Shown here: positions 4,043 to 25,227 of the stretch, piece after piece
How positions within the stretch are numbered: the stretch's first letter is position 1
How the letters are laid out: every line of letters starts with the position of its first letter
Assembly: GCA_028687045.1 (NCBI GenBank)
Contig: JAQUAW010000001.1
Span: 2,034-66,033 of the forward strand
Source: Patescibacteria group bacterium
GTDB lineage: Bacteria; Patescibacteriota; Patescibacteriia; Magasanikbacterales; UBA922
DNA length: 64,000 nt
Reading direction: 5' to 3'
The notes under the pieces: generated by a model
The model's database searches: none
Told to the model about the DNA's origin: nothing
The model's input: the letters and a program-made list of their open reading frames with translations, nothing else
Translations under genes and position numbers: made by a program

Positions 4043-4864
4043 TCCCTTTTTTAATTATACTTTTCTAATTTATGAATTTATAATTTTGAATTTTGAAACA
4101 ATTTTCAATTTAATAATTTTGAAAAATATTTTTGATAAATTTCAAAAAAAATTATAAAATGATATTTTATTTAAAATAAAATTTTAGATAAATAATCAAA
4201 AGTACTTGCTAGTTGGATGTTTAGAATTGGATTTCTGATTACTACAATAGTCATGGGGATTTTTTAATAAAAAAGATGATACACTATACCTTGAGAAATA
4301 AAGCCCTGTTTTGTAGTGTCGTAAAATATAGATAATAATGGCTAAGTAGAGCCAAAAAGAGGAGATTGTTGTACTACCGAGTAGGTATCTATAATAAGCT
4401 AATAATTACTATAAAATAGCTGTAAAAAAATAGAACAATTATGTATTAAATATTTTTTTGTTAATTTTAAAGTTACATAAGTATTGGATATTAATGTTAG
4501 ATGTAGGGTACTAATGGCTGATGAAACATTTAAATATTATCTTATATTATAGTAGTATGTCGCATAAGGTATATTGTGCGACATTGCTTTAAACTAGTAT
4601 AAATGCTACCCAACTATACTTTTTTGTGTCTCTTCCCTATCAATGTTTTTGTTGCAAACAAAATATATCTAATATATTATTTTACCTTAAATAAAAAATA
4701 GACAATTATATTATTGTGTCTATTTTTTTTATAAATTTGCAGCGACGGTCGTGTGAAGTTTGGTATGGGTAACTAAACTTCTCACGACCGTCTATAGCGT
4801 CCCCTACTCTAGTAGAAAACGCTCTACATATTATATAACTACGTTTCTGAAATCTTGTCAACTG

Positions 4865-5683
4865 TTATTTAATTGTTGCAAAAAGTATTTTTGCGTAGTT
4901 TGGATTTGCGTTGTATAAATTGCTCATTTGTTTGATTACTCTCAAAAGAGATGGTTCAAAATCATTTACTTTTATAGTATCCCCTTCTGTTACATTGTCT
5001 AATACTGTATTTGCTACAGTTTTGACATTTTTGAATTCTCTATCTGTCAAAATCCAAAAAGCCAATTCATTTTCAATATGTCTTTTTTTGTTGTCTTGAA
5101 TAAGATAAACTTTAGGATTATTTGAAGTTTTTACCAAGTCTCCTTCTTTGACAGTATTCTCTGTTGAGGCCACAGTAGCTTCACCTATTTGTTGGCGATA
5201 TTTTGTAAGTTCAGTCAAAACCCATTGTTTAGTAATAGCATTGCCTGGGCAACTTTTTTTTGAGTAATCACGGTGAAAATGTATTTCAGAATCTGGAATA
5301 TTTAATTTTTTTAATAAAGTATTTATAGAATGTAGTGTATTCGTCTTGGTTTCTCCACACCAAACTTGGTTATCATAATCACCAACAACTTCAATACCAA
5401 TACTAAGATGATTGCCACTTCCGGCGTGAATACCATCACGACTCATATCAGAGAATAACCAAATACCATCTTCTGCCACAAAGAGATGTGGTCCTGCAGA
5501 CCAGCCTAGTCCTTCATAATAATGTTTTAAGCCTAGTACAGTGTTTTGTCCGTTCCATTCTTCTTTACTTGGACTCCAAGTATGATGGATTACTAGTTTG
5601 TTTGGGGGTAATGATCCATAATTTTTACTATTTGCGTAGCTAGTAAATTGATTACGATTTAATTTTTGATTTACAATATCCAT
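4865..5683 (-). CDS. N-acetylmuramoyl-L-alanine amidase (amidase_2/PGRP fold) with a C-terminal putative cell-wall-binding repeat
   Basis: Motifs HHTWSP...GWSAGPHLFV...HRDYSKKSCPG. The C-terminal segment VYLIQDNKKRHIENELAFW is shared with the protein at 55586..56989. Confidence 0.7.
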   Translation of the reverse strand: MDIVNQKLNRNQFTSYANSKNYGSLPPNKLVIHHTWSPSKEEWNGQNTVLGLKHYYEGLGWSAGPHLFVAEDGIWLFSDMSRDGIHAGSGNHLSIGIEVVGDYDNQVWCGETKTNTLHSINTLLKKLNIPDSEIHFHRDYSKKSCPGNAITKQWVLTELTKYRQQIGEATVASTENTVKEGDLVKTSNNPKVYLIQDNKKRHIENELAFWILTDREFKNVKTVANTVLDNVTEGDTIKVNDFEPSLLRVIKQMSNLYNANPNYAKILFATIK

Positions 5684-5719
5684 ATATATTATATTTTAAA
5701 ATTAATTTGTTTTATTTTT

Positions 5720-6751
5720 TTATTTCCAATAAATTCTATCAGAATAACGTAGATCTATATAATCCAAAAACTTATTTTCATCTTTTATTTTGTCTCTATA
5801 CAAAGCTTCTATTTTATTTATTTGAGATTTCACATCTATATCAAAACGTGTTTTCATATAAAATCCTTTGTATGTTTTTATGGTAAGATCTTGATGGTTA
5901 TCTTCAAATACAAAATATTTTAAAGGAATTTTTTCATTATTATCTAAATTTTTAAACCAAGCTATAATTGAGCTAACTTCATTTTTGTCTAAAACATTTT
6001 GATTGATAGTTACCTCTTGAAAATTATTTTTATCATAAATAATTGGATAATTACCTAAATCTTTTTTTATTGCATTTATGTCAGGTTCATGAAATCTAGC
6101 TATTACTATGGTAGTGGTAACTGTAGTACCATCATTTGTAGTCGTGGCTACATTTTTGGTAATATCTTTCCATTCATAATCACTGGTTTTACGCATTATT
6201 TCTACTATTTTTCCATCTAAATCAACATAGCTATATTCAATTCCATTATCATAGATAATAGTTGATATTTTTTCTTGAATAATAATTTCTAATTTATTAG
6301 GGAAACTTTTTTTGACTATTATTTTTTCTATAGGATATCTATCTTTTATAATATTTTTTATGTCATTAATATTGGCAATTAAATAGCTGTTTTGTTTGAT
6401 AAAACCGAATTTATTATAATTTAATATACCATTCACAGTGTCCAAAAGTTCTGTTTTGTTTATTCTTTGTATTCCTTCAATATTTATATTTTTGATAGAG
6501 AAAAATGGATGAAAAATAAATAAAGAAAATGTAAAAGATAAACTAAAAACTATAATAACTACTTTTAGATAAATATGATTATTGACTTTTTCATGTAAAA
6601 ATGGATTTTCCATTTCTTTGCCTTGCCAAGCAAAATCACGTCTTGTTTTTTTATAATTAAAAAAAGAGCTAAAAAACTTTTTGGTATTTTTTACTTTATG
6701 ATGAAACTTTCTTTGTAGTTTGTGATGATTTATGATTTTTTTGACTGACAT
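5720..6751 (-). CDS. ftsQ: Cell division protein FtsQ/DivIB-like (single TM plus POTRA)
   Basis: Basic N-terminus, one TM helix, then INIEGIQRINKTELLDTV, which is a POTRA signature. Confidence 0.55.
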   Translation of the reverse strand: MSVKKIINHHKLQRKFHHKVKNTKKFFSSFFNYKKTRRDFAWQGKEMENPFLHEKVNNHIYLKVVIIVFSLSFTFSLFIFHPFFSIKNINIEGIQRINKTELLDTVNGILNYNKFGFIKQNSYLIANINDIKNIIKDRYPIEKIIVKKSFPNKLEIIIQEKISTIIYDNGIEYSYVDLDGKIVEIMRKTSDYEWKDITKNVATTTNDGTTVTTTIVIARFHEPDINAIKKDLGNYPIIYDKNNFQEVTINQNVLDKNEVSSIIAWFKNLDNNEKIPLKYFVFEDNHQDLTIKTYKGFYMKTRFDIDVKSQINKIEALYRDKIKDENKFLDYIDLRYSDRIYWK

Positions 6752-6757
6752 AGAGTA

Positions 6758-6803
6758 CGGTCATCCTGAGCCGACGAAGTACGGCGTAAGGATCTTTCTT
6801 AAG
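6758..6803 (+). repeat. X-type hairpin repeat directly upstream of the ftsQ start
   Basis: CGGTCATCCTGAGCCGACGAAGTACGGCGTAAGGATCTTTCTTAAG. Confidence 0.7.
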
Positions 6804-6933
6804 AAGTACTTTTTAGAAATAATTTATGCTAATTGATTCTTATGATTTTGCTAATACTACTTAAAATATAAACATAATAAATTTTCCCCTCCATATTATT
6901 CTGTTAAATATAATTTATATTTTAGAGTTTGTA

Positions 6934-6966
6934 GGGTCTACAGATCCATCGCTCCGCTCAGGATAA
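6934..6966 (-). repeat. Y-type repeat, the inverted partner of 6758..6803
   Basis: Reverse complement is TTATCCTGAGCGGAGCGATGGATCTGTAGACCCT. Confidence 0.65.
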
Positions 6967-6967
6967 T

Positions 6968-7993
6968 TTAAAATCCACGTTTTTTATTTCTGATAGTTTC
7001 AATAATCCAGTTGAACCAATATAGTGGTGAGACTATATAGTCTTGTGCTGGTAATAAATCAATTTTGAAACCACCAAAACCTTTTTTGAAATGAGTAATA
7101 CCTTTGAAAGGATGACTATCAGGCGCATCGTCAGGAGCTATACCCCAGAAGTTGTAATAGTTTAATCCCCTTCTTTTGGCTTCTTTGATAGCTTCCCATT
7201 GTAGTAAATATGATGTTGGTAATTTTTTGTCTTGAACAAGTGAAGCCCCATGTCTATAAGCTGCTGAATTTCCATAATAATAGACTACAGCAGAAGAATC
7301 TAGCGTGTTGTTGTTTGGTAAGTATGCTTTGATTATAGCGACTTCATTGTCTTTGGAAAAATTTAAAAATTCTTTTTCTACATAACTATTTGAAAAACGT
7401 ACAAAATGATGTTTTTTTGCAGTATAATCATGCAAAACATTGAATTCTTCCAAAACTTTTTTATCATTAGAAAATTCTATTTTTACATTTTCTCTTAGGC
7501 ATCTATTTATTAGATTTCGATGATTTTTGTTCATATTCATCAAAATATTTTCTTCACTATCACGCAAATCCAAAAGCCAAGTCGTTTCAGCTAATACGTG
7601 GGTAGGCGCTTTACGAAAACCTATTTCGGCATAATTTTGTTTGTTTGTTTCAGTATCTTCTATGAAAGGTGAAACACGGATAAAAGAATAATTTTCTTTT
7701 TTGGCTTTTTGTTTTAAAAAATCTAACCAAGACTGCAAAGCTTCTTTGTTATTTTCTGTTATATAAGGTCCATAAGGTACAAAAAGAAAGTTGCCACGTT
7801 TAGCATGTACACTTAATACCAAAGAACCTCCTACAAGTTCATTATTTTTATAAATACCAATAAGCCAGTACTTCTCCCCCATCAATTTATAAAACTCACC
7901 ATATTTGTAAGATTGGTTCATGAGAGTGTATTTTTGTTTTAGCAAAAATTCTTCCCAATTTTTTTTATTTTCAATTTCTTTTATTTCGTACAT
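6968..7993 (-). CDS. FemAB-family peptidoglycan interpeptide-bridge aminoacyltransferase (paralog 1)
   Basis: About 340 aa with a FemABX-like motif layout (GNFLFVPYGP, HHFVRFS, LNYYNFWGI). Tandem with its paralog. Confidence 0.5.
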   Translation of the reverse strand: MYEIKEIENKKNWEEFLLKQKYTLMNQSYKYGEFYKLMGEKYWLIGIYKNNELVGGSLVLSVHAKRGNFLFVPYGPYITENNKEALQSWLDFLKQKAKKENYSFIRVSPFIEDTETNKQNYAEIGFRKAPTHVLAETTWLLDLRDSEENILMNMNKNHRNLINRCLRENVKIEFSNDKKVLEEFNVLHDYTAKKHHFVRFSNSYVEKEFLNFSKDNEVAIIKAYLPNNNTLDSSAVVYYYGNSAAYRHGASLVQDKKLPTSYLLQWEAIKEAKRRGLNYYNFWGIAPDDAPDSHPFKGITHFKKGFGGFKIDLLPAQDYIVSPLYWFNWIIETIRNKKRGF

Positions 7994-7995
7994 AA

Positions 7996-8988
7996 TTATT
8001 TTTCTTTTGTACTATGACCAACAATGGTTCTTTTTCTTAGTTTTTGAATTAAAGAAAATATTTTGTATTTGAAAGGATTCAGAATTATTTCCAAAGGTTT
8101 TGGATAGCATTCTAATTTACCATTAAAACCAGCTTTAAACTTCGCTACACCATCAAGAGGATGAGATTTTTGCCAAGTATAATTATGGTGTGAATTTTTG
8201 TCAGTACTTCCCTCTTTGGCTGGCGGAGCCATTCCCCAAAAGTCATAAACTTTGCAACCAAGTTGTTTGGCTAATTTTATTATTTCAAATTGATTTAGAT
8301 AAGGTCCCATCAAGTTGCGATGACTATTGGAAGACGCACCAAATAAATAATACATTTTGTTTTCATATTTGAAAACAATAGCTGAGGATAATACATCTTC
8401 ACCAAAATAAGTTGTGAGTTGGTAAACAGTATCTAACTTCAATAATTTTTCAATATAAGTTTTGTCATGAGTTCTAATACTATTTCTCTCAGTTGTCATT
8501 TCATTCAATTTCCAATAGGTTTCTAGATTTTTTTCTTGTTTGCATACTACACCTTTTTTGATAGCTAGATTTATATTGTATCTAGTTTTGCTATGCATTT
8601 CAGATAATATTTCATTTTCAGATTTTTCTAGATCTAGTAACCAAGTACATTCTGGTTGACGATTTCTTACTTCGGTGTAACTAAAATTTTTTGTAGTGGT
8701 GCTATTCAATCTTTCAATTCGCCAAAATACAAAATTTTTTTCTTTGAAAAATTTACTTATTTCATCAAGTATTTCTTCAGAAAAAGAAACGCGAGGTACG
8801 TAAATAAATTTCAAACCAAGAGCATTGGAAGTTACTACACCTTGAAATTGTATTTTTTCATTGTCAGTTATCAATTCGTATCTAAGTAGTTGTCTGCCTG
8901 TATCTTTCAAAAATTCACCATATTCCCAAGATTGTAAAAATTCTTTTTTTAGTGTCCAATCCTCTTTTTTTAATACTTCTTTTATCAT
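7996..8988 (-). CDS. FemAB-family aminoacyltransferase (paralog 2)
   Basis: Same architecture as 6968..7993 (FIYVPRVS, KVYDFWGMAP). The stop and start are 3 bp apart. Confidence 0.5.
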   Translation of the reverse strand: MIKEVLKKEDWTLKKEFLQSWEYGEFLKDTGRQLLRYELITDNEKIQFQGVVTSNALGLKFIYVPRVSFSEEILDEISKFFKEKNFVFWRIERLNSTTTKNFSYTEVRNRQPECTWLLDLEKSENEILSEMHSKTRYNINLAIKKGVVCKQEKNLETYWKLNEMTTERNSIRTHDKTYIEKLLKLDTVYQLTTYFGEDVLSSAIVFKYENKMYYLFGASSNSHRNLMGPYLNQFEIIKLAKQLGCKVYDFWGMAPPAKEGSTDKNSHHNYTWQKSHPLDGVAKFKAGFNGKLECYPKPLEIILNPFKYKIFSLIQKLRKRTIVGHSTKEK

Positions 8989-10223
8989 ACATTATTATTT
9001 ATTAATTCAACTATCATCTTAGCTTGCGTATAGGTAATGTCTTTGTTAATTGGTAAGTTTATAGATCTGGTAGCTAAATATTCAGCTTTGGGACAACTAT
9101 TTTTTATATAACCAGTTCTTTCTATATCTAAATATTTATCATTTGGAGCAATCACTGAGTCATACCAGTTACCCAAGATAATTCTTTTTTTCTTAGCTAA
9201 TTGAATCAAATTTTTTGGATTATCTACTAAAATTGTATACCTCAAAAGAATTTCATCATTAGATATTTGAGGTTTTTGAATATTTTTGGCTACTAACATT
9301 CTATCATATATTTCAGAAATTTCTTGTCGGTGTTTGTTCATTTGTTCCAATTTTTGCAATTGGTTCAACAAAATTTTTGCCAAAGAATTCGGATATTTTG
9401 CTGGATAAAAATTTAATTTGTGGCAAGATTTTTCTTCTTTATAAATTATTTTGCCTGTTATACCCATTTTTTGAGCCAAAGCTAATCCTAGTTTCCCTAA
9501 ATTAGCTACATCATAAAGAGCTTTACCAATATAAAAGATTGGGAAATTACAAAGATTTTGGAGTATTGTTTTTGTACTTGATTCTGGTAGTTTCTTATTT
9601 AACAACATTATTTTTTCGGCTATTTTGTCATTGTTGGTAATAAGTGCCCCACCTCGTGATGATGATATAACTTTGTCAGTACCAAAACTAAACATGCCAA
9701 TATCTCCCCAAGTTCCTATTAATTTGTCTTGGTATTTACCACCTATAGTATGAGCACAGTCTTCTATGACTATTAGATTATTTTCTTTGGCTATTTGTAA
9801 TAAATTTTCTAAATCTGCAGCTTTACCAAAAGTATGTTGAATAATTAATATTTTTGATTTTGGTGTTATTTTCTTTTTCAAATCTTCTACAGACATGTTC
9901 AAATCTTCGTTTATGTCTACATATACAGGTTTAGCTCCTGCCCAATTAATAGCATTACTAACAACAAGACAAGTATAGGCTTGAACCAAGACTTCATCAC
10001 CATACTTTATGTCTGTTGCTTCTATAGCTTTTTGTAAAGCAGTACGTCCACTATCAAAAGTAATCGCATATTTTACAGAAAAATAATTTTGTAACCAATT
10101 TTCAACTTGAATAATATTATTACCTTTTTTTAGTTGAGACCATTTCCAAGGTAAAAGTAAAAAAGACAAAGCAGTACTTACATCTTTTTTAGAAATGTTA
10201 GGATGAAAACCTGTAAAAATCAT
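8985..10223 (-). CDS. DegT/DnrJ/EryC1/StrS-family PLP-dependent sugar aminotransferase
   Basis: IEDCAHTIGG and FSFGTDKVISSSRGGAL motifs. Overlaps the upstream gene by 4 bp. Confidence 0.75.
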   Translation of the reverse strand: MIFTGFHPNISKKDVSTALSFLLLPWKWSQLKKGNNIIQVENWLQNYFSVKYAITFDSGRTALQKAIEATDIKYGDEVLVQAYTCLVVSNAINWAGAKPVYVDINEDLNMSVEDLKKKITPKSKILIIQHTFGKAADLENLLQIAKENNLIVIEDCAHTIGGKYQDKLIGTWGDIGMFSFGTDKVISSSRGGALITNNDKIAEKIMLLNKKLPESSTKTILQNLCNFPIFYIGKALYDVANLGKLGLALAQKMGITGKIIYKEEKSCHKLNFYPAKYPNSLAKILLNQLQKLEQMNKHRQEISEIYDRMLVAKNIQKPQISNDEILLRYTILVDNPKNLIQLAKKKRIILGNWYDSVIAPNDKYLDIERTGYIKNSCPKAEYLATRSINLPINKDITYTQAKMIVELINNNV

Positions 10224-10227
10224 AATT

Positions 10228-11823
10228 TTATTTAGCTAATTCTTGTCTTACGTTATCAGGTATTCTGTTTTCTAATAAAATAACTGATTTTTTATTTTTT
10301 TGATTTTTTATAAATTCTAATAAATCTTTACTACTCAGTTTTACCATAATTTTTGTATTGTATTTTGTTCCTACACCTTTTTTTAAAGGTTCTATGAAAT
10401 CAGGAGTTGTAATGACTAATTCATCAGCTACAAAAGCTACTTCACCACCAATTTGTTCGTGTATTTCATCACTTAGCTCCCCTAGTTCTATTATTCCTCT
10501 AGTAATAACTACTCTATTATATTCATGAGGATAACCAGCTAACATATTTATAGCAACGCGAAAACCATCAGGATTGGAGTTGTAAGTATCATCAATTATA
10601 ATAGCTTTACCATAATTATAAATTTGCAAAGCATGTTTTGGATTTTCTATTTTTTTGACAGCTTCTTTTATTTCTTCAATAGAAAAACCTAAATAATTAG
10701 CAACCAAAAGAGAAGGTGCCAAATTCAAAATATTGTATTCGCCGGTAATTTTTGTTTGTATTTCAATTAAAGTTTCTTTTCCTTCAATTGTTTTTTTGAA
10801 TTTACCAATTATTCCTATTTCATTACTTTTTATATCTTCAATTAGACATGTCGGTTGGTATTCTTCTTCAAAACCAAAAGTTAAAACTTTGGCTTTTATT
10901 TCATCTAAAAATTCTCGACAATACTTGTTGTCAGAATTTGTCACTGCCAAACCATTTTTTGGTAAAAATCTTAATAGCTCATATTTTGCTTTTTGAATGT
11001 TTTCAATAGATCCAAACAAACTTAAGTGCTGAGGACTAATAGCTGTAAGTATGCCAATTTCAGGGTGGACAATATTACAATGTTCTGTCAAATCACCAAC
11101 ATTATAAGCTCCCATTTCAACTATAAAAAAGTCAATATCTTTGAAGTTGTTTTGTAAAATAAATTTACTGATACCAAAATCTGTATTAATATTTTTTGGT
11201 GTGCAAATAACTTTGAATTTGTAAGCGAGTAATTGAGTAAGAATTTCTTTGGTACTAGTTTTACCATAACTACCAGTGATACCTATCACACGTAATTTTT
11301 TTATTTTTTGCAATTTCTTTCTGGCCATTCTAGCGATATGATCTTTGACAAATTGGGAAGCAATATTTAGTAAATGTACTAAAATAGTAATAGTTATAAA
11401 ACGCAAGAAACTAAAAGCAGCAATAGTCCTAATATCTTCTGTCTTTAAATAAAAAGCAATTTCAATTAATACTGAAGAAAAAATTAACAAAATTATTTTC
11501 AAACTAAATTTTGGTTTCTTGATTGGTTTTTTGAGAATTATCTTTGCTAAAAAATATAAAAAGTCCAAAAAGTATATTAGAAAAACTGCCCACTCAATCA
11601 CCAAAAAATAGCTTTGATTCCAAAAAAATACTACCAAAACAAGTGGCATTTTGTAAATAAAATCATAACGGAAAATAATCCGTTTACCTTCAGAAGTGCG
11701 AAGTAAATCCAAAAATCTATCCCAACGATATTCTTTTAGTTGCCAAAAATAAGCAAATTGCAAATATTCATTGCTCATGCTGATTAGCCAAAGTAAAATA
11801 ATGGATAAATCTAAAAGATTCAT
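10228..11823 (-). CDS. Mur ligase family protein (MurF-like) with an N-terminal multi-TM extension
   Basis: IGITGSYGKTSTKE P-loop typical of Mur ligases, with about 170 aa of hydrophobic N-terminus. Confidence 0.6.
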   Translation of the reverse strand: MNLLDLSIILLWLISMSNEYLQFAYFWQLKEYRWDRFLDLLRTSEGKRIIFRYDFIYKMPLVLVVFFWNQSYFLVIEWAVFLIYFLDFLYFLAKIILKKPIKKPKFSLKIILLIFSSVLIEIAFYLKTEDIRTIAAFSFLRFITITILVHLLNIASQFVKDHIARMARKKLQKIKKLRVIGITGSYGKTSTKEILTQLLAYKFKVICTPKNINTDFGISKFILQNNFKDIDFFIVEMGAYNVGDLTEHCNIVHPEIGILTAISPQHLSLFGSIENIQKAKYELLRFLPKNGLAVTNSDNKYCREFLDEIKAKVLTFGFEEEYQPTCLIEDIKSNEIGIIGKFKKTIEGKETLIEIQTKITGEYNILNLAPSLLVANYLGFSIEEIKEAVKKIENPKHALQIYNYGKAIIIDDTYNSNPDGFRVAINMLAGYPHEYNRVVITRGIIELGELSDEIHEQIGGEVAFVADELVITTPDFIEPLKKGVGTKYNTKIMVKLSSKDLLEFIKNQKNKKSVILLENRIPDNVRQELAK

Positions 11824-11828
11824 ATCAT

Positions 11829-12560
11829 TTAATTAGAAAATGTTTTTATTATATTTAATAATTCTTCTTTTTTCCAAAGGTGTAAACCATGTGTACCATT
11901 TTTTATCACTTCAAGTTTTGAACCTACGATATTATTGGCAATTAATTCAGCATCTTTGACAGGAACAAAACTATCTTTGTCTCCCCAGACAATTAGAGTT
12001 GGGATTTTTATTGCTGGTAAAAACTCGCTAACATCTTGCTTATTGATTTTGAGGAAAATATCTCTTTTGATGCCAGTTGTCTTATTGTAGTCCCCTGTTC
12101 CTGCTGATTTGTAAAGTAATTTACGCATAAAACCAGCAAGCTTATTTAGCCCTGGTAAACTAAATACTATTTTACCACTTTTGGCAATAAATTTAAAGAT
12201 TTTATTTCTAATACTTTCTGGTCGACGATAAATAGCAGCGCCACTCAAAATTAATTTATCAACAATGTTTGGTTCGTGAGATAGTAAATAAGAAGCAACT
12301 TGTCCACCAAAACTATGACCAAGCAAAATTGTGGGCTGTCCTTCTTGTTTGAGACTAATTATTTTGTCTTTAACAAACTGTGAGTACTCCTCCACACCCC
12401 AAATTGAGCTAGGACAGCTTTCCTCACCAAAACATGGTAGTTCTATCACTTCTACTTCAAAATCACTCTCCGCCAACAATACAAAATCAGACCAAGTTTG
12501 TTTTGATCCGTTCCAGCCGGGGAGGATAATCAATTTTTTATTTTGTGGAGTGCTCTCCAT
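11829..12560 (-). CDS. Alpha/beta-fold hydrolase
   Basis: GHSFGG nucleophile elbow; 243 aa. Confidence 0.6.
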   Translation of the reverse strand: MESTPQNKKLIILPGWNGSKQTWSDFVLLAESDFEVEVIELPCFGEESCPSSIWGVEEYSQFVKDKIISLKQEGQPTILLGHSFGGQVASYLLSHEPNIVDKLILSGAAIYRRPESIRNKIFKFIAKSGKIVFSLPGLNKLAGFMRKLLYKSAGTGDYNKTTGIKRDIFLKINKQDVSEFLPAIKIPTLIVWGDKDSFVPVKDAELIANNIVGSKLEVIKNGTHGLHLWKKEELLNIIKTFSN

Positions 12561-12602
12561 AATTTTGAATTTAGTAATTTTAAATTTTAAAATTTTGAAA
12601 AC

Positions 12603-13082
12603 TTATTTTATTGCTTTTTTGACAATACTTTTTATATTATCATCGGCACTAGTTATTTTCAAATTATCTATTTCAGACAAAGGAATCCATTCTAATTTGG
12701 CATTCAACTGTATTTCTTTTTCTTCAAAATTTTGTTCTTTTGCATTACCTACTAATTCACAGACATAAAAAAACTTAATAGCATGTGATGATCCTAAATT
12801 AAATGGCATCTCAAAAAAACGAGTGTTTATTTCTATCAAATCTTTTACTTTAATTTCAAAACCTGTTTCTTCCAAAAATTCTCTACGCAAAGCGTCAATA
12901 TGATCTTCACCGAGTTCAATCCCACCACCAATCAAATAATAACCTAAATCTCCAAATTTTATCATGAAAACTTTATCATCTTTTATTACCACAGCATATA
13001 CTGATGGACGAAAATATAAATCACTAACTTTCATTATTACTTTTTCACCTTCCATATTGTAGCCTTCAACAGTATTTGACAT
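12603..13082 (-). CDS. Nudix hydrolase (paralog A)
   Basis: Nudix box GGGIELGEDHIDALRREFLEETGF. Confidence 0.75.
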   Translation of the reverse strand: MSNTVEGYNMEGEKVIMKVSDLYFRPSVYAVVIKDDKVFMIKFGDLGYYLIGGGIELGEDHIDALRREFLEETGFEIKVKDLIEINTRFFEMPFNLGSSHAIKFFYVCELVGNAKEQNFEEKEIQLNAKLEWIPLSEIDNLKITSADDNIKSIVKKAIK

Positions 13083-13083
13083 A

Positions 13084-13493
13084 TTAGTTTATTGATTTTT
13101 TTATAATAGAAACTAAGTCAGTACTATCACCTATTTTAATTTTTTCTAATTTTGAAAGTTCAACCCATTTTCACAACTGAAAAATATTCTGATAGCATGA
13201 ACATCTTTATTAAATGAAGGATGTCTGAAAAAACTAGTTTGCACATCAATAATTTTCTTTATTTGTACATTATATCCAGTTTCATCTAGTACTTCTCTAC
13301 TTATTGCATTCTCTATTGTTTCTCCCAAGTCTATTCCCCCACCTGGTAAAGAGTATCCAAAATTTTGGCTTATCATTAAGACTTTTTCATCTTTTGTTAC
13401 TATACCATAAACAGAAATTCTCCAACTCAAATCAGAAATATTCATTTCTATTTTGTTTCTATCTTTATCTTCTCCTGTAACAGTTTTGTTCAT
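13084..13493 (-). pseudogene. Nudix hydrolase paralog B, apparently frameshifted near the 3' end
   Basis: The ORF 13146..13493 stops early (…ENGLNFQN*). A different frame just downstream encodes VELSKLEKIKIGDSTDLVSIIKKSIN, which is homologous to the C-terminal tails of paralogs A and C. Confidence 0.45.
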
Positions 13494-13494
13494 A

Positions 13495-13977
13495 TTATTT
13501 TTTAATACAATTTTTTACTATTTCAAGCAATGTACCATCGTCCCCTGCCATTTTTAGATTTTCTATTTCAGATAAATTTACCCACTCCACACTAACATTC
13601 AAAATATTTTCAGACTCAGTCAATTTTATATCTTCTGGATTTTCCGATATTATTTCAGCTTTATAAAATATTTTTATAGTATGACTGTATTTTTCTTTTA
13701 TTGGTGATTTGAAAAAAGCTGTTTGTATATCAAGTAAATCTCCTACTTCCACAGTATAGCCGGTTTCTTCTTTCAATTCTCTTATCAAGGTATCTATGTG
13801 ATCTTCACCAAGATCAATTCCACCACCTGGTAAAAAATAACCATACTTACCAAACTTTGTCATTAATAATTGATTGTCTTTAATTATGATAGCATAAATT
13901 GATGGTCTAAAATATAAATCATCAACATTGATAATTATTTTTTCATTAGATATTGTTAGTCCGTCAACTGTTTTCAT
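13495..13977 (-). CDS. Nudix hydrolase (paralog C)
   Basis: Nudix box GGGIDLGEDHIDTLIRELKEETGY. Confidence 0.75.
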   Translation of the reverse strand: MKTVDGLTISNEKIIINVDDLYFRPSIYAIIIKDNQLLMTKFGKYGYFLPGGGIDLGEDHIDTLIRELKEETGYTVEVGDLLDIQTAFFKSPIKEKYSHTIKIFYKAEIISENPEDIKLTESENILNVSVEWVNLSEIENLKMAGDDGTLLEIVKNCIKK

Positions 13978-13989
13978 GTTTTTTTGTTT

Positions 13990-15249
13990 TTATGCTTTTA
14001 TAGTATCCTTGCCCATAAAATTCTGCAAAACTTTCGGTACTCTAATACTTCCATCCGCTTGCTGATTGTTTTCAAGTATAGCAATTGGAAAACGACTTAG
14101 TACTACAGCTGTACCATTTAGTGTATGCACAAATTCATTTTTGCCTTCCTCATTTTTATATTTGATATTTAATCTTCTTGCTTGATAATCTGTACAGTTA
14201 CTGGTACTAGTGATTTCACCATAACCACCTTTAGCTTCATCTTCAGCTTTCATCGTCATCCAAGCTTCAATATCATATTTGCGGTAAGCAGGACCACCAA
14301 GATCGCTAGTTGGAATGTCAATAACGCGATAAGGAATTTCTAAACCATCACAGATTTCTTTTTCAATACTTAATAATTCTTGATGCAAGGTTTCACTTTC
14401 TTCTGGTTTACAGAAAATAAACATTTCTAATTTGGTAAATTGATGCACACGATAAAGACCTTTGCTAGTGCGACCATAAGCTCCAGCTTCAGTACGGAAA
14501 CAGTGAGACATAGCAGCATATTTCTTTGGTCCAGAGCTCAAATCCAAAACTTCGTCAGCATGATAGCCGAGCATTGTAATTTCTGCAGTGCCAACTAAAC
14601 TCAAACCTTCATCATTAATATTATAAATTTGTTTTTCTGCTCCACGAGGATTGAAACCAGCACCAAGCAAAATTTCATGCTTAGCTAAATCTGGAGTTTC
14701 GACAAGATTGTAACCGTGTTTTGCCAAAATATCCATGCCGTAATTTAGCATCGCTTGGTTTAGTCTGACCATATCATTTTTGACAAAGTAAAACTTACTA
14801 CCAGTTACTTTGGCACCACGTTCGAAATCTATCAAATCAAGATTGATCATAAGTTCTTCATGATCTTTGGCAGGAAAATCAAAGTTTGGAATAGTTCCAC
14901 GTTCTTCGACTGTGACAAAATCTTCTTCGCCACCAATCGGACTTTGTGGATGAGTCATATTTGGTACTTGGAGCATTAGTTCCATAAAATCAGCATCAAC
15001 TTTTGCTAGTTCTTCTTCCAAAGATTTTATTTTCTCCCCTACTTCACGCATTTGTTTTATTTCTTCATCAGTTGGTTTACCTTTTGATCCACTATTTCTT
15101 TTTGAACGTAGTTCTTCTACTTCTTGCATTTTTTCTCTTTTTTGTTTGTCCAAATCAAGAAGAGTATCAATATTTATTTTGACTCTTCTATTTACACAAT
15201 TTTGTTTTATGAGTTCGCTATTGTCGCGAATGAATTTTATGTCGAGCAT
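13990..15249 (-). CDS. serS: Seryl-tRNA synthetase. The likely true start is the second Met (MLDIKFIRDN…); the ORF track extends to 15264.
   Basis: N-terminal coiled coil and class II motifs (FRTEAGAYGRTSKGLYRVHQF, GTAV…SR). Confidence 0.9.
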   Translation of the reverse strand: MLDIKFIRDNSELIKQNCVNRRVKINIDTLLDLDKQKREKMQEVEELRSKRNSGSKGKPTDEEIKQMREVGEKIKSLEEELAKVDADFMELMLQVPNMTHPQSPIGGEEDFVTVEERGTIPNFDFPAKDHEELMINLDLIDFERGAKVTGSKFYFVKNDMVRLNQAMLNYGMDILAKHGYNLVETPDLAKHEILLGAGFNPRGAEKQIYNINDEGLSLVGTAEITMLGYHADEVLDLSSGPKKYAAMSHCFRTEAGAYGRTSKGLYRVHQFTKLEMFIFCKPEESETLHQELLSIEKEICDGLEIPYRVIDIPTSDLGGPAYRKYDIEAWMTMKAEDEAKGGYGEITSTSNCTDYQARRLNIKYKNEEGKNEFVHTLNGTAVVLSRFPIAILENNQQADGSIRVPKVLQNFMGKDTIKA

Positions 15250-15258
15250 ATGGGCAAT

Positions 15259-15302
15259 GGTCATCCCGATCCGCCGAAGGACGGAAAGGGATCTTTCTTA
15301 AA
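15259..15302 (+). repeat. X-type repeat overlapping the serS 5' end
   Basis: GGTCATCCCGATCCGCCGAAGGACGGAAAGGGATCTTTCTTAAA. It has compensatory stem changes relative to copy 6758..6803. Confidence 0.7.
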
Positions 15303-15370
15303 TATAAATGTTTTTAAAATAATTGACGTTAATTGATTCTAAAAAATGTTTTTGAATAAATAAAAGTTAT

Positions 15371-15416
15371 CAGGGTCTACAGATCCATCATCGTATTCTC
15401 GACTCAGGATGACATT
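15371..15416 (-). repeat. Y-type repeat, the inverted partner of 15259..15302
   Basis: CAGGGTCTACAGATCCATCATCGTATTCTCGACTCAGGATGACATT. Confidence 0.65.
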
Positions 15417-16465
15417 GAATTACAATACTCAATCAACTCTGGCAAAATTTCTTGATATAACTTATTATTGGCTCCAATCATATCTTCGTCTCCTGCTTTT
15501 TCCAAATCAAACCATTCAATTCCCAAAGTCTCGGCGTCAGATATTTCGTTAATGTTGGAAATTACTTTACAAAGCATTGGTACTAGATACACTTGATATT
15601 TTACAACTGAATCTAACTGAGCTTCAACATATATTTTGCTGAGTTGTCTGACTACTTCTACCACATAGCCAACCTCTTCTTGAGTTTCTCTAATTACATT
15701 TGTTTCAAATGTTTCACCAAGTTCCATACTGCCACCTGGGAATTCCCACTTGTTATGGTAGTCTGGTCGATGGGGGTCATTCCTCTTGGACATAAGAATT
15801 TTTCCATTGTCTACAATGATGGCAAGTGGAACAACGATGTGTTTGACACCATACTGATTTTGTAAATAATATTTTATTTTTATCAAAGCTTTGCCGCGGT
15901 GACTTGTTGCATTTTTTTCATTCGGTGTTAGTTCTGCATAAGTTTTTCCTAAATCTTCCAAATAAAATATTGGATCATAGCCCCAAGCAGTCTCTGTGTC
16001 TACACGTTTTTCTAATACCACCCCTTCTCTTACTCCGGTATTAGAAAAAAAACTTTTTTGTTGAGGGTCATAACAAACAAGACAAGATTTGAACTGTGCT
16101 TGTCTTTTTTCTAGTGGGACATCTTTTAATTTTTCTAGTAAAATATTTATACGTTCATCAGCATCAGCACCTACTCGAGCACTAATTACTCCAGGCCAAC
16201 CATCCAAAGCATCTACAAAAATTCCACCATCGTCAGCAATACTCATTAGACCTGTTTTTTCAGCGTAGTATTTGGCTTTAAGCACGGCATTGGCTTCTAT
16301 GGTACTTTCTGTTTCTTCAGGCTCTACTATTTTTTCGGGTAATTCAGCTAGAGACAAAAAATTAAATGGCAAATCTGCCAAAAATTTTTTCATTTCTCTG
16401 AATTTACCTTCATTGGTAGTAGCGATTAATATTTTTCTTTTTTCTTCTGTCATAAGGTTTTTCAC
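15404..16465 (-). CDS. Fusion protein: an RdgB/Ham1-type non-canonical NTP pyrophosphatase (N-terminal) joined to a Nudix hydrolase (C-terminal)
   Basis: N-terminus ILIATTNEGKFREMKKFL with a Ham1-like layout. C-terminus FPGGSMELGETFETNVIRETQEEVGY is a Nudix box. Confidence 0.65.
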   Translation of the reverse strand: MKNLMTEEKRKILIATTNEGKFREMKKFLADLPFNFLSLAELPEKIVEPEETESTIEANAVLKAKYYAEKTGLMSIADDGGIFVDALDGWPGVISARVGADADERINILLEKLKDVPLEKRQAQFKSCLVCYDPQQKSFFSNTGVREGVVLEKRVDTETAWGYDPIFYLEDLGKTYAELTPNEKNATSHRGKALIKIKYYLQNQYGVKHIVVPLAIIVDNGKILMSKRNDPHRPDYHNKWEFPGGSMELGETFETNVIRETQEEVGYVVEVVRQLSKIYVEAQLDSVVKYQVYLVPMLCKVISNINEISDAETLGIEWFDLEKAGDEDMIGANNKLYQEILPELIEYCNSMSS

Positions 16466-23832: not shown

Positions 23833-25086
23833 CTATTTTAATAATTCATCAATTGCAATAATTTTAGCTTCACTTTCATTACGTTTTTTAATTTCAACAG
23901 AATCTTGTGCCAAAGTCTTTGGACTTATGATGACACGAAGAGGAATACCAATTAAATCACTATCGGCAAACTTCTCCCCTGCTCGCACACCAATTCTATC
24001 ATCATACAAAACTTCTTTGCCTTGTTTTGTCAAAGTTTCATATAGTTCATCAGCTTTCTTCACATCAGCTTCTTCGCTACAAAGTGAAACAAGATGAATT
24101 TGGAATGGTGCGACGCTCTCTGGCCAAACAAGACCTTTTTCATCAGCAAAGCGCTCAACAATCACTCCCATCAAACGAGTAACACCAATTCCATAAGATC
24201 CTAGATGTACATATTTTTTTTCACCATTTTCGTCTGTAATATAAAGATTCATTTGTTCAGATTTTTTGGTACCAAAATTAAAAATATTTCCCACTTCAGC
24301 TGTTTTGACTTCTTCTAATTCATCACGAGTTACACCCAAATCTTGCAAAACTTTGTCACTCAAAACTTCATTATTGATAGCTATCTTTTTATCACGATTG
24401 ATATAGATAACATCTTCGCCAGCATCGGTAATTGTTTGAAATTCGTGAGAGAACTGTGTGAAGGCTCCACCAGAAGCAAAAGTAACAAAAGTATCGTCAC
24501 CTAGTCCAACACGTTCAAATACGCGCATATAAGCATCTATCACACCTTGATAAAATTTTTCATGTTGTTCTGCATCTAAGCTGTATGAATATAAATCTTT
24601 CATGACAAATTCACGACCACGCAAAATACCTGATTTTGCTCTTAGTTCATTACGCATTTTTGTTTGAAATTGATAAACATAAGCAGGTAAATCTTTGTAA
24701 CTAGAAATGTAATTTTTCATCATTTCACTAATAGGTTCTTCGTGTGACCAACCAAAACCGACTTCTGTGCCATTTTTTAATTTAGATTTGAACCAGACAT
24801 CCACATTTTCATCACTCCAGCGATCGGTATTTTCCCAAAGTTCTTTTCTTTGAAGACTAGTCATGATGAGTTCTTGTCCTCCAACAGCATTCATTTCTTC
24901 ACGAATAATTTGTTTTATTTTTTCAAGTACACAAATACCTAATGGTAGATAAGCATAAGCACCGGCCATTTCTTTGTAAATATATCCTGCGCGTGTCAGA
25001 AATTCTGCATTTTTTGACACTTCATCAGCAGGCGCTTCTTTGCGAGTTTTGGTAAATAATTGTGATTGTTTCATATGTTTTATCAT
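23833..25086 (-). CDS. proS: Prolyl-tRNA synthetase (short, archaeal/eukaryal-like form)
   Basis: 417 aa with class II motifs. Lacks the long bacterial insertion domain. Confidence 0.8.
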   Translation of the reverse strand: MIKHMKQSQLFTKTRKEAPADEVSKNAEFLTRAGYIYKEMAGAYAYLPLGICVLEKIKQIIREEMNAVGGQELIMTSLQRKELWENTDRWSDENVDVWFKSKLKNGTEVGFGWSHEEPISEMMKNYISSYKDLPAYVYQFQTKMRNELRAKSGILRGREFVMKDLYSYSLDAEQHEKFYQGVIDAYMRVFERVGLGDDTFVTFASGGAFTQFSHEFQTITDAGEDVIYINRDKKIAINNEVLSDKVLQDLGVTRDELEEVKTAEVGNIFNFGTKKSEQMNLYITDENGEKKYVHLGSYGIGVTRLMGVIVERFADEKGLVWPESVAPFQIHLVSLCSEEADVKKADELYETLTKQGKEVLYDDRIGVRAGEKFADSDLIGIPLRVIISPKTLAQDSVEIKKRNESEAKIIAIDELLK

Positions 25087-25087
25087 A

Positions 25088-25116
25088 TTGAGCGAAGCGA
25101 AATATCTTTCTTAAGG
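25088..25116 (+). repeat. X'-type repeat at the proS start
   Basis: TTGAGCGAAGCGAAATATCTTTCTTAAGG. Confidence 0.6.
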
Positions 25117-25227
25117 AATACTTCTATAACGCTTCAAATTAATTTTTATTAAATAACTATTTTAAATAACTTTTCTGAGAAGAAATAAATATTTTGTAAG
25201 AAAATTTTTCTTATTATAATATATTTA

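What the first reader, a model, noticed from the sequence alone, without database searches (positions are those of the whole stretch)
6968..12560. Peptidoglycan tailoring cluster: two FemAB-like transferases, a DegT aminotransferase, a MurF-like ligase with a long N-terminal TM domain, and an alpha/beta hydrolase
Seen: five co-directional, tightly packed genes lie downstream of ftsQ. The Mur-ligase homolog carries about 170 aa of membrane helices before the ligase P-loop, which is atypical for cytoplasmic MurC-F.
Inference: a membrane-anchored ligase and two Fem-type transferases suggest a non-canonical stem-peptide or interpeptide bridge, possibly with an amino-sugar modification from the DegT enzyme.
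Basis: partly seen in the sequence, partly recalled or inferred. Interest (0 to 1): 0.5.

Follow-up and report, generated by a model that had tools for sequence, protein, structure and literature searches.

The report
Membrane-anchored MurF cell-wall operon
The five genes are real and form the cell-wall precursor operon of a candidate-phyla-radiation bacterium, whose MurF enzyme has swapped its nucleotide-binding head for a five-helix membrane domain and always travels with a serine hydrolase, a widespread arrangement I found no published description of.

Summary
Five tightly packed minus-strand genes (12560→6968) encode an α/β-hydrolase, a 531-aa MurF-like ligase with about 170 N-terminal membrane residues, a DegT aminotransferase and two FemAB transferases. 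They lie upstream of ftsQ, not downstream.

The ligase is not a mis-joined ORF and probably not a tailoring enzyme. The same architecture recurs in hundreds of protein clusters. It is the annotated MurF of cultured Clostridia such as Gottschalkia acidurici. It fills the murF slot of dcw clusters in Poribacteria (murE–hydrolase–murF–ddl–mraY) and Woesebacteria (hydrolase–murF–degT–femAB–mraY–ftsW–murG).

The hydrolase sits directly upstream in 74 of 76 loci across phyla. The membrane domain has no Pfam family or solved structural relative and occurs only fused to this ligase.

Downstream genes split cleanly. Non-CPR lineages carry ddl (45/46). CPR lineages carry degT–femAB (25/28 and 28/28) and never ddl, and their ligase lacks an arginine that is invariant in the ddl-linked clade.

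Best reading: a housekeeping membrane-tethered MurF with a hydrolase partner, plus Fem-type stem-peptide branching. The roles of DegT and the hydrolase are unresolved. I rate it a new variant of a known kind, moderately interesting.

The parts
11829..12560 (-). α/β-hydrolase (243 aa), the conserved upstream partner of the membrane-type MurF
   Evidence: Pfam Abhydrolase_1 scores 75.9 bits. Ser83 (in GHSFGG), Asp196, His224 and a D157-Y158 pair are each at least 95% conserved in 72 orthologues from several phyla. The gene lies on the same strand within 2.5 kb upstream of the ligase in 74 of 76 loci that have enough upstream sequence. No signal peptide or TM segment is visible in the sequence.
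11308..11823 (-). N-terminal membrane domain of the ligase (residues 1-172). It has five predicted TM helices and a conserved W-Q-L-K-x-Y-R-x-D-R motif at the cytoplasmic end of TM1.
10228..11307 (-). MurF-type ligase body (residues 173-531): ATP-binding middle domain and C-terminal domain
   Evidence: TIGR01143 murF scores 245.9 bits, E 7.5e-73, covering profile positions 60-403 of 418. The top seven PDB sequence hits are all MurF, with 3zl8 at E 1.4e-44. The top ten Foldseek hits are all MurF, with 4qf5 at E 1.2e-25 over 377 columns.
8985..10223 (-). DegT/DnrJ/EryC1/StrS-family PLP aminotransferase (412 aa)
   Evidence: Pfam 221.3 bits. Residues 33-210 align to perosamine synthetase 3bn1 at E 4e-34, including the Schiff-base lysine. 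K184 and D155 are at least 95% conserved in 27 CPR orthologues. The gene lies directly downstream of the ligase in 25 of 28 CPR loci and in none of 46 non-CPR loci.
7996..8988 (-). FemAB-family transferase a (330 aa), an extra paralogue seen only in close Magasanikbacteria relatives
   Evidence: Pfam FemAB 93.8 bits. It is 30% identical to the second copy. A second Fem gene is present only in the window, L001-L003 and a few other loci.
6968..7993 (-). FemAB-family transferase b (341 aa), the orthologue of the single Fem gene found in all CPR loci
   Evidence: Pfam FemAB 98.2 bits. It matches FmhB 6snr and FemA 1lrz with the helical-arm segment skipped. F302-K303-x-G-F-G-G is at least 95% conserved in 29 sequences. 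A Fem gene lies downstream of the ligase in 28 of 28 CPR loci.
5720..6751 (-). FtsQ-like division protein, the conserved downstream neighbour in CPR
   Evidence: POTRA_1 25.9 bits against a cut-off of 23. It follows the Fem gene in 19 of 28 CPR loci.
13990..15264 (-). Seryl-tRNA synthetase, a conserved upstream neighbour of the hydrolase in CPR only
   Evidence: Seryl_tRNA_N plus tRNA-synt_2b. It lies upstream in 21 of 24 CPR loci and in none of 45 non-CPR loci. A functional link is inference only.

Best explanation
This is the core cell-wall precursor operon of a Candidatus Magasanikbacteria (CPR/Patescibacteria) genome.

The 531-aa ligase is the organism's MurF, the enzyme that adds the terminal dipeptide to the muramyl tripeptide. 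It belongs to a widespread subfamily I found no published description of. In this subfamily the soluble N-terminal UDP-binding domain has been replaced by a five-helix membrane domain. The predicted topology is N-terminus out, ligase in the cytoplasm, and conserved polar residues on the cytoplasmic face. The last soluble step of precursor synthesis is therefore tethered to the membrane beside MraY.

A cytoplasmic serine hydrolase with an intact Ser-Asp-His triad is its obligate genomic partner. I infer that it works with the membrane domain. Its reaction is unknown.

The FemAB proteins then use aminoacyl-tRNA to add a branch to the stem peptide. That would be one residue in most CPR and two in this lineage.

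DegT is an active PLP aminotransferase that CPR have built into the same operon. Its substrate is unassigned.

Shown here: domain architecture, family assignments, conservation and gene neighbourhoods. Inferred: the housekeeping role, the topology, the Fem branch and every substrate.
For: Architecture is conserved.
- 120 listed homologues cover 96-100% of the protein at 43-97% identity.
- The domain profile finds 718 clusters, essentially all as N-termini of proteins about 530 aa long.

The enzyme is MurF-like.
- TIGR01143 gives E 7.5e-73 and is far better than the murC, murD or murE models.
- MurF structures are the top hits by both sequence and fold.

Context points to a housekeeping role.
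- Poribacteria L047: mraW-ftsI-murE-hydrolase-ligase-ddl-mraY.
- Woesebacteria L052: hydrolase-ligase-degT-femAB-mraY-ftsW-murG-...-ftsA.
- Neighbouring Mur ligases are MurC, MurD or MurE, never a canonical MurF.
- A ddl that passes the NCBIfam D-Ala-D-Ala ligase cut-offs lies directly downstream in 45 of 46 non-CPR loci.
- The protein is the annotated MurF in cultured Gottschalkia, Caloranaerobacter, Proteiniborus and others. The complete G. acidurici genome shows hydrolase-ligase-ddl.
- The 64-kb window contains no other Mur ligase.

The hydrolase is a partner: 74 of 76 loci, with a conserved triad.

Fem and DegT: family scores and conserved catalytic residues. Operon synteny persists down to 31-45% ligase identity.
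Against: - I could not search any whole genome for a second, canonical murF. 'Sole MurF' rests on neighbourhoods and on annotation names.
- The protein misses the TIGR01143 cut-off (245.9 against 288.6), and its C-terminal Pfam score is borderline.
- All 28 CPR-clade ligases lack the arginine of the H-R motif. That arginine is invariant in the ddl-linked clade (46/46) and aligns with the G-R arginine of E. coli and T. maritima MurF. The CPR enzyme may therefore not behave exactly like MurF.
- Nothing explains how UDP-MurNAc-tripeptide would be bound without the N-terminal domain.
- No function is established for the hydrolase or for DegT.
Confidence: 0.6

Rival explanations
1. The membrane domain replaced the UDP-binding domain because the enzyme acts on a lipid-linked substrate. 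On this reading the dipeptide is added to undecaprenyl-PP-MurNAc-tripeptide at the membrane, after MraY rather than before it. The hydrolase would help with substrate or product handling.
For: - The UDP-binding domain is completely lost and a polytopic domain gained, with invariant Q28/Y32 and conserved P104 and K/R109 on the predicted cytoplasmic membrane face.
- The domain occurs only on this ligase.
- From my own knowledge, not tested here: MurT, a Mur-fold enzyme without the UDP domain, works on lipid II together with a partner that has a catalytic triad.
- The gene is adjacent to mraY in several lineages.
Against: - There is no direct evidence.
- Simple tethering explains the same data.
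- The gene order murE-murF-ddl-mraY is the canonical one.
- The rest of the enzyme is ordinary MurF.
Confidence: 0.15
2. In CPR the DegT-FemAB pair functionally replaces Ddl. The end of the stem peptide, or the substrate handed to the CPR-type ligase, would be made by a tRNA-dependent Fem-type enzyme together with a PLP enzyme rather than by D-Ala-D-Ala ligase.
For: - The neighbourhoods are mutually exclusive. ddl lies directly downstream in 45 of 46 non-CPR loci and in none of 28 CPR loci. degT and femAB lie downstream in 25 of 28 and 28 of 28 CPR loci and in none of 46 non-CPR loci.
- In Woesebacteria the pair sits between murF and mraY, exactly where ddl sits in Poribacteria.
- A Ddl HMM finds nothing in any CPR locus or in the 64-kb window.
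- The two ligase clades separate cleanly, and the CPR clade has lost the invariant arginine.
- FemAB-b also matches solved 'aminoacyl-tRNA-dependent peptide synthases' at E 3e-4.
- SerRS is a CPR-specific upstream neighbour.
Against: - Absence of ddl within about 10 kb is not absence from the genome.
- As far as I recall, and not checked here, public CPR genomes do carry annotated D-Ala-D-Ala ligases.
- Fem enzymes transfer L-aminoacyl groups, whereas DD-transpeptidases need a D-D terminus.
- All known DegT enzymes act on keto-sugars or inososes, not on amino acids.
- A few CPR loci have femAB without degT (L016, L019).
Confidence: 0.1
3. DegT and FemAB together decorate a sugar rather than the stem peptide. 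DegT would aminate a nucleotide-keto-sugar and the Fem-type enzyme would aminoacylate the new amine, giving a modified glycan or a secondary wall polymer.
For: - DegT is closest to sugar C4 aminotransferases such as PseC, LegC, WecE and ArnB, and to perosamine synthetase.
- The Fem proteins and DegT give weak hits to the paired NCBIfam families FemAB_IMCC1989 and PLP_IMCC1989, and to the PEP-CTERM-associated FemAB family of exopolysaccharide loci.
- degT and femAB are adjacent, with overlapping stop and start codons.
Against: - No dehydratase or oxidoreductase that could supply a keto-sugar lies in the operon or among the window ORFs scanned.
- The genes are embedded in the dcw cluster between murF and mraY or ftsQ, not in a polysaccharide locus.
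- The best Fem model is the stem-peptide FemX.
Confidence: 0.12

Closest known systems
Canonical MurF (UDP-MurNAc-tripeptide:D-alanyl-D-alanine ligase; E. coli 1GG4, A. baumannii 4QF5, T. maritima 3ZL8)
   Same: The middle and C-terminal domains match: the P-loop, E236, H266, K280, N367 and the DDxYNxNP motif. MurF is the best sequence and fold match. In relatives the gene sits in the murF position next to murE, ddl and mraY.
   Different: The N-terminal UDP-binding domain of about 80 residues is absent and is replaced by a five-helix membrane domain of about 170 residues. The C-terminus ends LLEN[RD] in this family. The CPR clade lacks the conserved arginine at the start of the C-terminal domain. 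An obligate hydrolase partner gene is present.
MurT/GatD lipid II amidation complex (S. aureus, S. pneumoniae)
   Same: It is a Mur-ligase-fold enzyme without the UDP-binding domain. It is encoded next to, and works with, a partner enzyme that has a catalytic triad, and it acts at the membrane. MurT chains appear as weak hits (6gs2, 7q8e, E about 1e-7).
   Different: MurT is soluble and carries a DUF1727 C-terminal domain. Its partner is a glutaminase, not an α/β-hydrolase. The sequence relationship here is far weaker than the relationship to MurF.
CapB/PgsB poly-γ-glutamate synthetase
   Same: It is a membrane-anchored member of the Mur ligase superfamily (my own knowledge).
   Different: It has a single anchor and is related to FolC. 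No CapB family appeared here, and the FolC model scored only 24 bits. The genomic context is unrelated.
MurE-MurF chimera of Bordetella pertussis (Shirakawa et al. 2023, PMC10214165)
   Same: It is a precedent for a functional MurF whose N-terminal 'cap' region is missing or replaced.
   Different: In that case the replacement is a fused MurE, not a membrane domain. That survey considered only Mur proteins longer than 600 aa, so the 530-aa membrane type fell outside its scope.
FemX of Weissella viridescens; FmhB/FemA/FemB of S. aureus; MurM/MurN of S. pneumoniae
   Same: FemAB fold, conserved F-K catalytic motif, and a tandem pair consistent with sequential additions. Like FemX, the proteins are short (330-341 aa) and lack the coiled-coil arm.
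   Different: Identity is low. The FemX equivalog model scores 46 bits against a cut-off of 500. Donor tRNA and acceptor are unknown. The genes sit inside the dcw operon next to a DegT gene.
DegT-family sugar aminotransferases (PseC, PglE, ArnB, perosamine synthetase)
   Same: The PLP-binding large domain matches, with the Schiff-base lysine and the aspartate.
   Different: The region after residue 210 is divergent, and sequence matches to solved structures stop there. No equivalog cut-off is reached. No partner dehydratase is nearby. The gene is embedded in a cell-division and cell-wall operon.

Membership tests
MurF (TIGR01143 / Mur ligase) | Mur ligase middle (ATP-binding) domain with a P-loop | tested here: met
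   PF08245 scores 131.7 bits against a cut-off of 24, over residues 182-374. GITGSYGKTS lies at 181-190.
MurF (TIGR01143 / Mur ligase) | Mur ligase C-terminal domain | tested here: met
   PF02875 scores 28.6 bits against a cut-off of 28.4, which is borderline. Profile and fold alignments to MurF structures run to about residue 500.
MurF (TIGR01143 / Mur ligase) | Closer to MurF than to MurC, MurD, MurE, Mpl, FolC or CphA | tested here: met
   murF 245.9 bits, against murC 84, murE 77, murD 70 and folC 24. The top seven PDB sequence hits and the top ten Foldseek hits are all MurF.
MurF (TIGR01143 / Mur ligase) | Score above the curated family cut-off | tested here: not met
   245.9 against 288.6 bits. 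The Poribacteria and Sporosalibacterium members also miss it, at 238.8 and 252 bits. The shortfall goes with the unaligned first 60 profile positions.
MurF (TIGR01143 / Mur ligase) | Soluble N-terminal domain that binds the UDP moiety | tested here: not met
   Alignments start at profile position 60 of 418, or at T. maritima MurF residue 68. Residues 1-160 form five hydrophobic helices with no Pfam match.
MurF (TIGR01143 / Mur ligase) | Residues invariant among Mur synthetases (list from my memory of Bouhss et al. 1997: P-loop Lys, Glu, His, two Asn, Arg, Asp) | tested here: inconclusive
   K188, E236, H266, N367 and D411/D412 are present and conserved. The arginine is Ala398 here and is never Arg in the 28 CPR-clade sequences, while it is Arg in 46 of 46 ddl-linked sequences.
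MurF (TIGR01143 / Mur ligase) | Genomic association with murE, ddl and mraY | tested here: met
   This holds in relatives: L047, L024 and similar loci show murE-hydrolase-ligase-ddl-mraY; L052 shows ligase-degT-femAB-mraY-ftsW-murG; 45 of 46 non-CPR loci have ddl adjacent. In the window itself only ftsQ is adjacent.
MurF (TIGR01143 / Mur ligase) | [quoted passage not shown] | not testable with these tools
   This needs an enzyme assay or complementation.
FemAB family (PF02388) | Family HMM above the gathering score | tested here: met
   98.2 and 93.8 bits against a cut-off of 24.
FemAB family (PF02388) | Conserved catalytic Lys in the F-K-x-x-F-G motif (FemX K305, from my own knowledge) | tested here: met
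   F302-K303-x-G305-F306-G307-G308 is at least 95% conserved in 29 orthologues. The paralogue has KFKAGFNG.
FemAB family (PF02388) | Coiled-coil helical arm of S. aureus FemA/FmhB | tested here: not met
   The alignment to 6snr skips chain residues 229-298, and the proteins are only 330-341 aa long. This matches the short FemX type.
FemAB family (PF02388) | Equivalog-level identity with FemX (NF047883) | tested here: not met
   46 and 41 bits against a cut-off of 500.
FemAB family (PF02388) | Aminoacyl-tRNA-dependent transfer to a peptidoglycan precursor | not testable with these tools
   This needs biochemistry or muropeptide analysis.
DegT/DnrJ/EryC1/StrS aminotransferases | Family HMM, with the Schiff-base Lys and the PLP-binding Asp | tested here: met
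   221.3 bits against a cut-off of 19.8. K184 aligns with the lysine of perosamine synthetase. K184 and D155 are at least 95% conserved.
DegT/DnrJ/EryC1/StrS aminotransferases | Assignment to a characterised specificity (PseC, LegC, WecE, ArnB and others) | tested here: not met
   The best is PseC at 162.9 bits against a cut-off of 423.5. All matches cover only residues of about 9-210.
DegT/DnrJ/EryC1/StrS aminotransferases | A neighbouring enzyme that produces the keto-sugar substrate | tested here: not met
   There is none in the operon or among the window ORFs scanned.
α/β-hydrolase fold | Family HMM and a Ser-Asp-His triad with a G-x-S-x-G elbow | tested here: met
   Abhydrolase_1 scores 75.9 bits. 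H82-S83-x-G85-G86, D196 and H224 are at least 95% conserved in 72 sequences. No specific subfamily cut-off is reached; the best is EstV lipase at 68.6 bits against 300.
CapB / FolC / cyanophycin synthetase / MurT (other Mur-fold ligases) | A better match to one of these than to MurF | tested here: not met
   folC 24 bits, cyanophycin synthetase 46 bits, and MurT chains at E about 1e-7, against MurF at E 1e-44 to 1e-73.

The most novel reading that the evidence does not exclude
In a large part of bacterial diversity (CPR, many Clostridia and Bacilli, Poribacteria, some Chloroflexota), the 'last cytoplasmic' step of peptidoglycan precursor synthesis is carried out by an integral membrane MurF. 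Its membrane domain, helped by a dedicated serine hydrolase, would replace UDP recognition because the true substrate is lipid-linked. That would reverse the textbook order of the MurF and MraY steps. In CPR the same enzyme has diverged further: it has lost the invariant arginine and has degT-femAB where other lineages have ddl.
Probability: 0.12. Interest if true: 0.85.

Novelty: new variant of a known kind. Interest (0 to 1): 0.6.

Why it matters
MurC-F are textbook soluble enzymes and antibiotic targets whose N-terminal domain holds the UDP moiety of the substrate. This analysis points to a MurF that lacks that domain, is built into the membrane and is always paired with a conserved hydrolase. 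It appears to be the housekeeping form in CPR bacteria and in cultured Clostridia.

If that holds, the accepted picture of where and how the pentapeptide precursor is completed is incomplete. It also names two uncharacterised players, the membrane domain and the hydrolase, that can be tested in cultivable organisms such as Gottschalkia acidurici.

For CPR bacteria, I found no published analysis of wall chemistry in the searches run here. The degT-femAB genes embedded in the dcw operon give concrete predictions for muropeptide analysis, namely a branched stem peptide or an amino-sugar or other modification.

The shared hydrolase-MurF module is also a candidate character for placing CPR relative to Firmicutes and Chloroflexota.

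Tried and rejected
- **Frameshift or mis-joined ORF.** Rejected. The full-length architecture is conserved in 120 listed homologues and in 80 genome loci.
- **A second Mur ligase in the window.** None found by phmmer against all ORFs of 60 aa or more.
- **A tailoring paralogue next to a canonical MurF.** Not supported. Every neighbouring Mur ligase I classified is MurC, MurD or MurE.
- **A Van-type ligase beside the non-CPR enzyme.** Rejected. It passes the D-Ala-D-Ala ligase cut-offs and fails all Van models.
- **Promoter and terminator scan of 4500-15500.** Counts do not differ from shuffles, so it is uninformative.
- **Rfam on the femAB-ftsQ gap.** Only chance-level hits.
- **Literature.** Eight full-text searches and eight papers opened found no description of a membrane-type MurF, of its hydrolase partner, or of degT-femAB in CPR dcw clusters.
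- **Do CPR genomes with the cluster lack ddl or a canonical murF?** I could not decide this.
- **Taxon labels.** Several MAG titles proved unreliable. L018, labelled 'Saccharibacteria', is Paceibacterota by its homologues. I therefore did not use such labels as evidence for Bacteroidota or Saccharibacteria membership.

Full report
**What is in the window**

The interval 6968-12560 holds five minus-strand ORFs:
- 12560..11829, 243 aa
- 11823..10228, 531 aa
- 10223..8985, 412 aa
- 8988..7996, 330 aa
- 7993..6968, 341 aa

The spacers between them are 5, 4, -4 and 2 nt. This is an operon-like arrangement.

Pfam assigns them in order to Abhydrolase_1 (75.9 bits), Mur_ligase_M and Mur_ligase_C (131.7 and 28.6 bits), DegT_DnrJ_EryC1 (221.3 bits), FemAB (93.8 bits) and FemAB (98.2 bits). 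All scores are above the gathering thresholds.

Transcription runs towards an FtsQ-like gene (6751..5720, POTRA_1) and a MurNAc-L-Ala amidase-type gene (5683..4865).

Further upstream lie three NUDIX paralogues, SerRS, a Ham1-NUDIX fusion, a cytidylyltransferase-like gene, a class II aminoacyl-tRNA synthetase, GreA, PBP2, MreD, MreC and MreB.

The window is about 30% G+C. Its closest relatives are Candidatus Magasanikbacteria.

**The ligase**

The P-loop GITGSYGKTS begins at residue 181. Residues 1-160 contain five hydrophobic helices.

AlphaFold2 models of the whole protein and of residues 1-172 both reach pLDDT 90. They place helices at 3-29, 53-67, 73-96, 108-128 and 131-172.

Lys and Arg cluster in loops 30-52 and 97-109 and after residue 158. 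From this I infer a topology with the N-terminus outside and the ligase in the cytoplasm.

From residue about 162 onward the protein is MurF-like:
- TIGR01143 scores 245.9 bits, E 7.5e-73, over profile positions 60-403 of 418. The murC, murE and murD models score 84, 77 and 70 bits.
- The seven best PDB sequence matches are all MurF, with 3zl8 at E 1.4e-44.
- The ten best Foldseek matches are all MurF, with 4qf5 at E 1.2e-25 over 377 columns.

The canonical N-terminal UDP-binding domain is absent, which is why the score stays under the curated cut-off of 288.6.

**Not an artefact**

The 120 best database homologues are 515-551 aa long, cover 96-100% of the query and are 43-97% identical to it.

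The N-terminal region carries its own conservation. W12, Q28, K30, Y32 and G46 are invariant among 50 Magasanikbacteria-type sequences, and W27, R33, D35, R36 and P104 are nearly so.

A profile of the region, searched against 1.84 billion representative proteins, finds 718 clusters at E<=0.001. The full-length hits are nearly all 505-571 aa with the match at residues of about 1-175. The short hits look like fragments. The domain therefore exists only as the head of this ligase.

**A family far wider than CPR**

A scan of one genome per GTDB species returned at least 590 relatives, and I examined 80 loci. They come from these groups:
- several CPR lineages: Magasanikbacteria, Paceibacterota, Woesebacteria and Peribacteria
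- Poribacteria
- Chloroflexota
- many Clostridia and Bacilli, including cultured Sporosalibacterium, Gottschalkia, Caloranaerobacter, Proteiniborus, Anaerosalibacter and Tepidimicrobium

In the cultured species this protein is the annotated MurF.

All members have 150-230 residues with four to six hydrophobic peaks before the P-loop. The motif after TM1 is WQLKEYRxDR in CPR and HM[LF]Q[LQ]NxY elsewhere. Q28 and Y32 are invariant in both groups, 28/28 and 46/46.

**Gene neighbourhoods**

- *The hydrolase partner.* An orthologue of the window's α/β-hydrolase lies on the same strand within 2.5 kb upstream of the ligase. This holds in 24 of 24 CPR loci, 45 of 45 ddl-linked loci and 5 of 7 unclassified loci that have enough upstream sequence. 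Its Ser83-Asp196-His224 triad and a D157-Y158 pair are at least 95% conserved across 72 sequences.
- *The downstream gene splits the family.* In 45 of 46 non-CPR loci the next gene is ddl. It passes the NCBIfam D-Ala-D-Ala ligase cut-offs and fails all Van-type models. In CPR loci the next genes are degT (25 of 28) and femAB (28 of 28), usually followed by ftsQ (19 of 28). ddl is never next, and a Ddl HMM finds nothing in any CPR locus or in the window.
- *The dcw cluster.* In Poribacteria the order is mraW-ftsI-murE-hydrolase-ligase-ddl-mraY, with murD and murC further on. In Woesebacteria it is hydrolase-ligase-degT-femAB-mraY-ftsW-murG-...-ftsA. Every other Mur ligase I classified near these genes is MurC, MurD or MurE, never a canonical MurF.
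- *A cultured example.* The complete genome of Gottschalkia acidurici shows hydrolase-ligase-ddl.

I conclude, by inference from context, that this membrane-type enzyme is the housekeeping MurF of these lineages. I could not scan whole genomes for a second murF.

**CPR-specific features**

A neighbour-joining tree of the ligase portion separates the degT/femAB-linked sequences (28) from the ddl-linked sequences (46) into two clean clades.

One conserved Mur-ligase position differs between them. The H-R motif at the start of the C-terminal domain is His-Arg in 46 of 46 ddl-linked sequences. The arginine is replaced by Gly, Ala, Thr or Ser in all 28 CPR sequences, and it is Ala398 in the window. 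This arginine aligns with the G-R arginine of E. coli and T. maritima MurF. As I recall from Bouhss et al. 1997, it is one of the residues invariant among Mur synthetases. I did not check that here.

SerRS precedes the hydrolase in 21 of 24 CPR loci and in no non-CPR locus.

Only the window and its close relatives carry two Fem genes. These are 30% identical to each other. Most CPR have one, orthologous to the 6968-7993 copy.

**The other proteins**

- *FemAB-b* matches FmhB (6snr) and FemA (1lrz) with the helical arm skipped. Its best NCBIfam model is the short Weissella-type FemX, far below cut-off. It keeps an F-K-x-G-F-G-G motif at least 95% conserved in 29 orthologues.
- *DegT* aligns over residues 33-210 with perosamine synthetase and other sugar aminotransferases. 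It keeps the Schiff-base lysine K184 and D155, but reaches no equivalog cut-off. No keto-sugar-forming enzyme is nearby.
- *The hydrolase* resembles small esterases (EstV, BioH, MenH, valacyclovir hydrolase) without reaching any specific cut-off.

**Mechanism**

Most likely (about 0.6): a membrane-tethered housekeeping MurF, working with a cytoplasmic serine hydrolase of unknown reaction, completes the pentapeptide next to MraY. The Fem enzymes then add a one- or two-residue branch from aminoacyl-tRNA. DegT is an active PLP enzyme whose substrate I cannot assign.

Rivals:
- The membrane domain replaced UDP recognition because the substrate is lipid-linked (0.15).
- degT-femAB functionally replace ddl in CPR (0.10).
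- DegT and Fem jointly modify a sugar (0.12).

Each of these is compatible with the data but has no direct support.

**Literature**

Eight full-text searches and several papers gave no description of a membrane-type MurF, of its hydrolase partner, or of degT-femAB inside CPR dcw clusters.

The survey of Mur fusions by Shirakawa et al. (PMC10214165) considered only Mur proteins longer than 600 aa, so this 530-aa type fell outside it. That paper does show that a MurF can function with its N-terminal cap replaced.

**Verdict**

The proteins are already in databases under the MurF name. What I found no published account of is the following set of features: replacement of the UDP-binding domain by a conserved membrane domain; the obligate hydrolase partner; and the CPR-specific degT-femAB genes downstream of murF where other lineages carry ddl, together with loss of an otherwise invariant arginine.

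I rate this as a new variant of a known kind, with interest 0.6.

Noticed in passing
window 6752-6967; 25085-25254; 29133-29148; 47743-47758: A GC-rich intergenic repeat of about 30 nt, AT(C/T)(C/T)TGAGCGGAGCGAAGnATCTTTCCTAAG, occurs five times against 0.04 expected. Two inverted pairs bracket AT-rich inserts of 170-215 nt. One of these fills the 216-nt gap between femAB-b and ftsQ, a gap that is about 10 nt in relative L002. It looks like a MITE- or REP-like element. There is no Rfam match, and the fold z-score is only -1.95.
   Followed up: partly
window 35841-43083 (-): A complex-I or group-4-hydrogenase-like membrane module lies next to an F-type ATP synthase. It comprises a fused NuoC/NuoD-like protein, two antiporter-like subunits, a NuoH-like subunit and a NuoB-like subunit. 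The large-subunit homologue has no CxxC nickel-iron ligand motifs. It is therefore a hydrogenase-related (Ehr/Mbx-like) complex rather than a hydrogenase, which is unusual cargo for a CPR genome.
   Followed up: partly
residue 398 of the ligase (window about 10630-10632) and loci L001-L071: All 28 CPR-clade ligases lack the arginine of the H-R motif. That arginine is present in 46 of 46 ddl-linked relatives and aligns with the G-R arginine of solved MurF enzymes. No compensating residue was identified.
   Followed up: partly
window 12603-13977 (-): Three tandem NUDIX paralogues (159, 115 and 160 aa) lie between SerRS and the hydrolase. The middle one is truncated. Relatives have one (L001) or none (L002) at this position.
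   Followed up: no
L004, L007, L018, L070 and others: Several public MAG titles are taxonomically wrong. Loci 44-46% identical to and fully syntenic with Magasanikbacteria are labelled 'Gammaproteobacteria'. A 'Saccharibacteria chromosome' (OZ246399) is Paceibacterota by its homologues, and one of those homologues is even labelled Pacearchaeota.
   Followed up: partly
window 13990-15264 (-) and CPR loci: Seryl-tRNA synthetase is a conserved upstream neighbour of the hydrolase-MurF-DegT-Fem operon in 21 of 24 CPR loci and in none of 45 non-CPR loci. This could hint at Ser-tRNA as the Fem donor, or it could be plain synteny.
   Followed up: no
window 55586-56989 (+); 61808-63253 (+): A 467-aa ORF has no Pfam match. 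An O-antigen-ligase-like (Wzy_C) membrane protein lies nearby.
   Followed up: no
window 1-64000: ARAGORN finds no tRNA gene in the whole 64-kb window.
   Followed up: no
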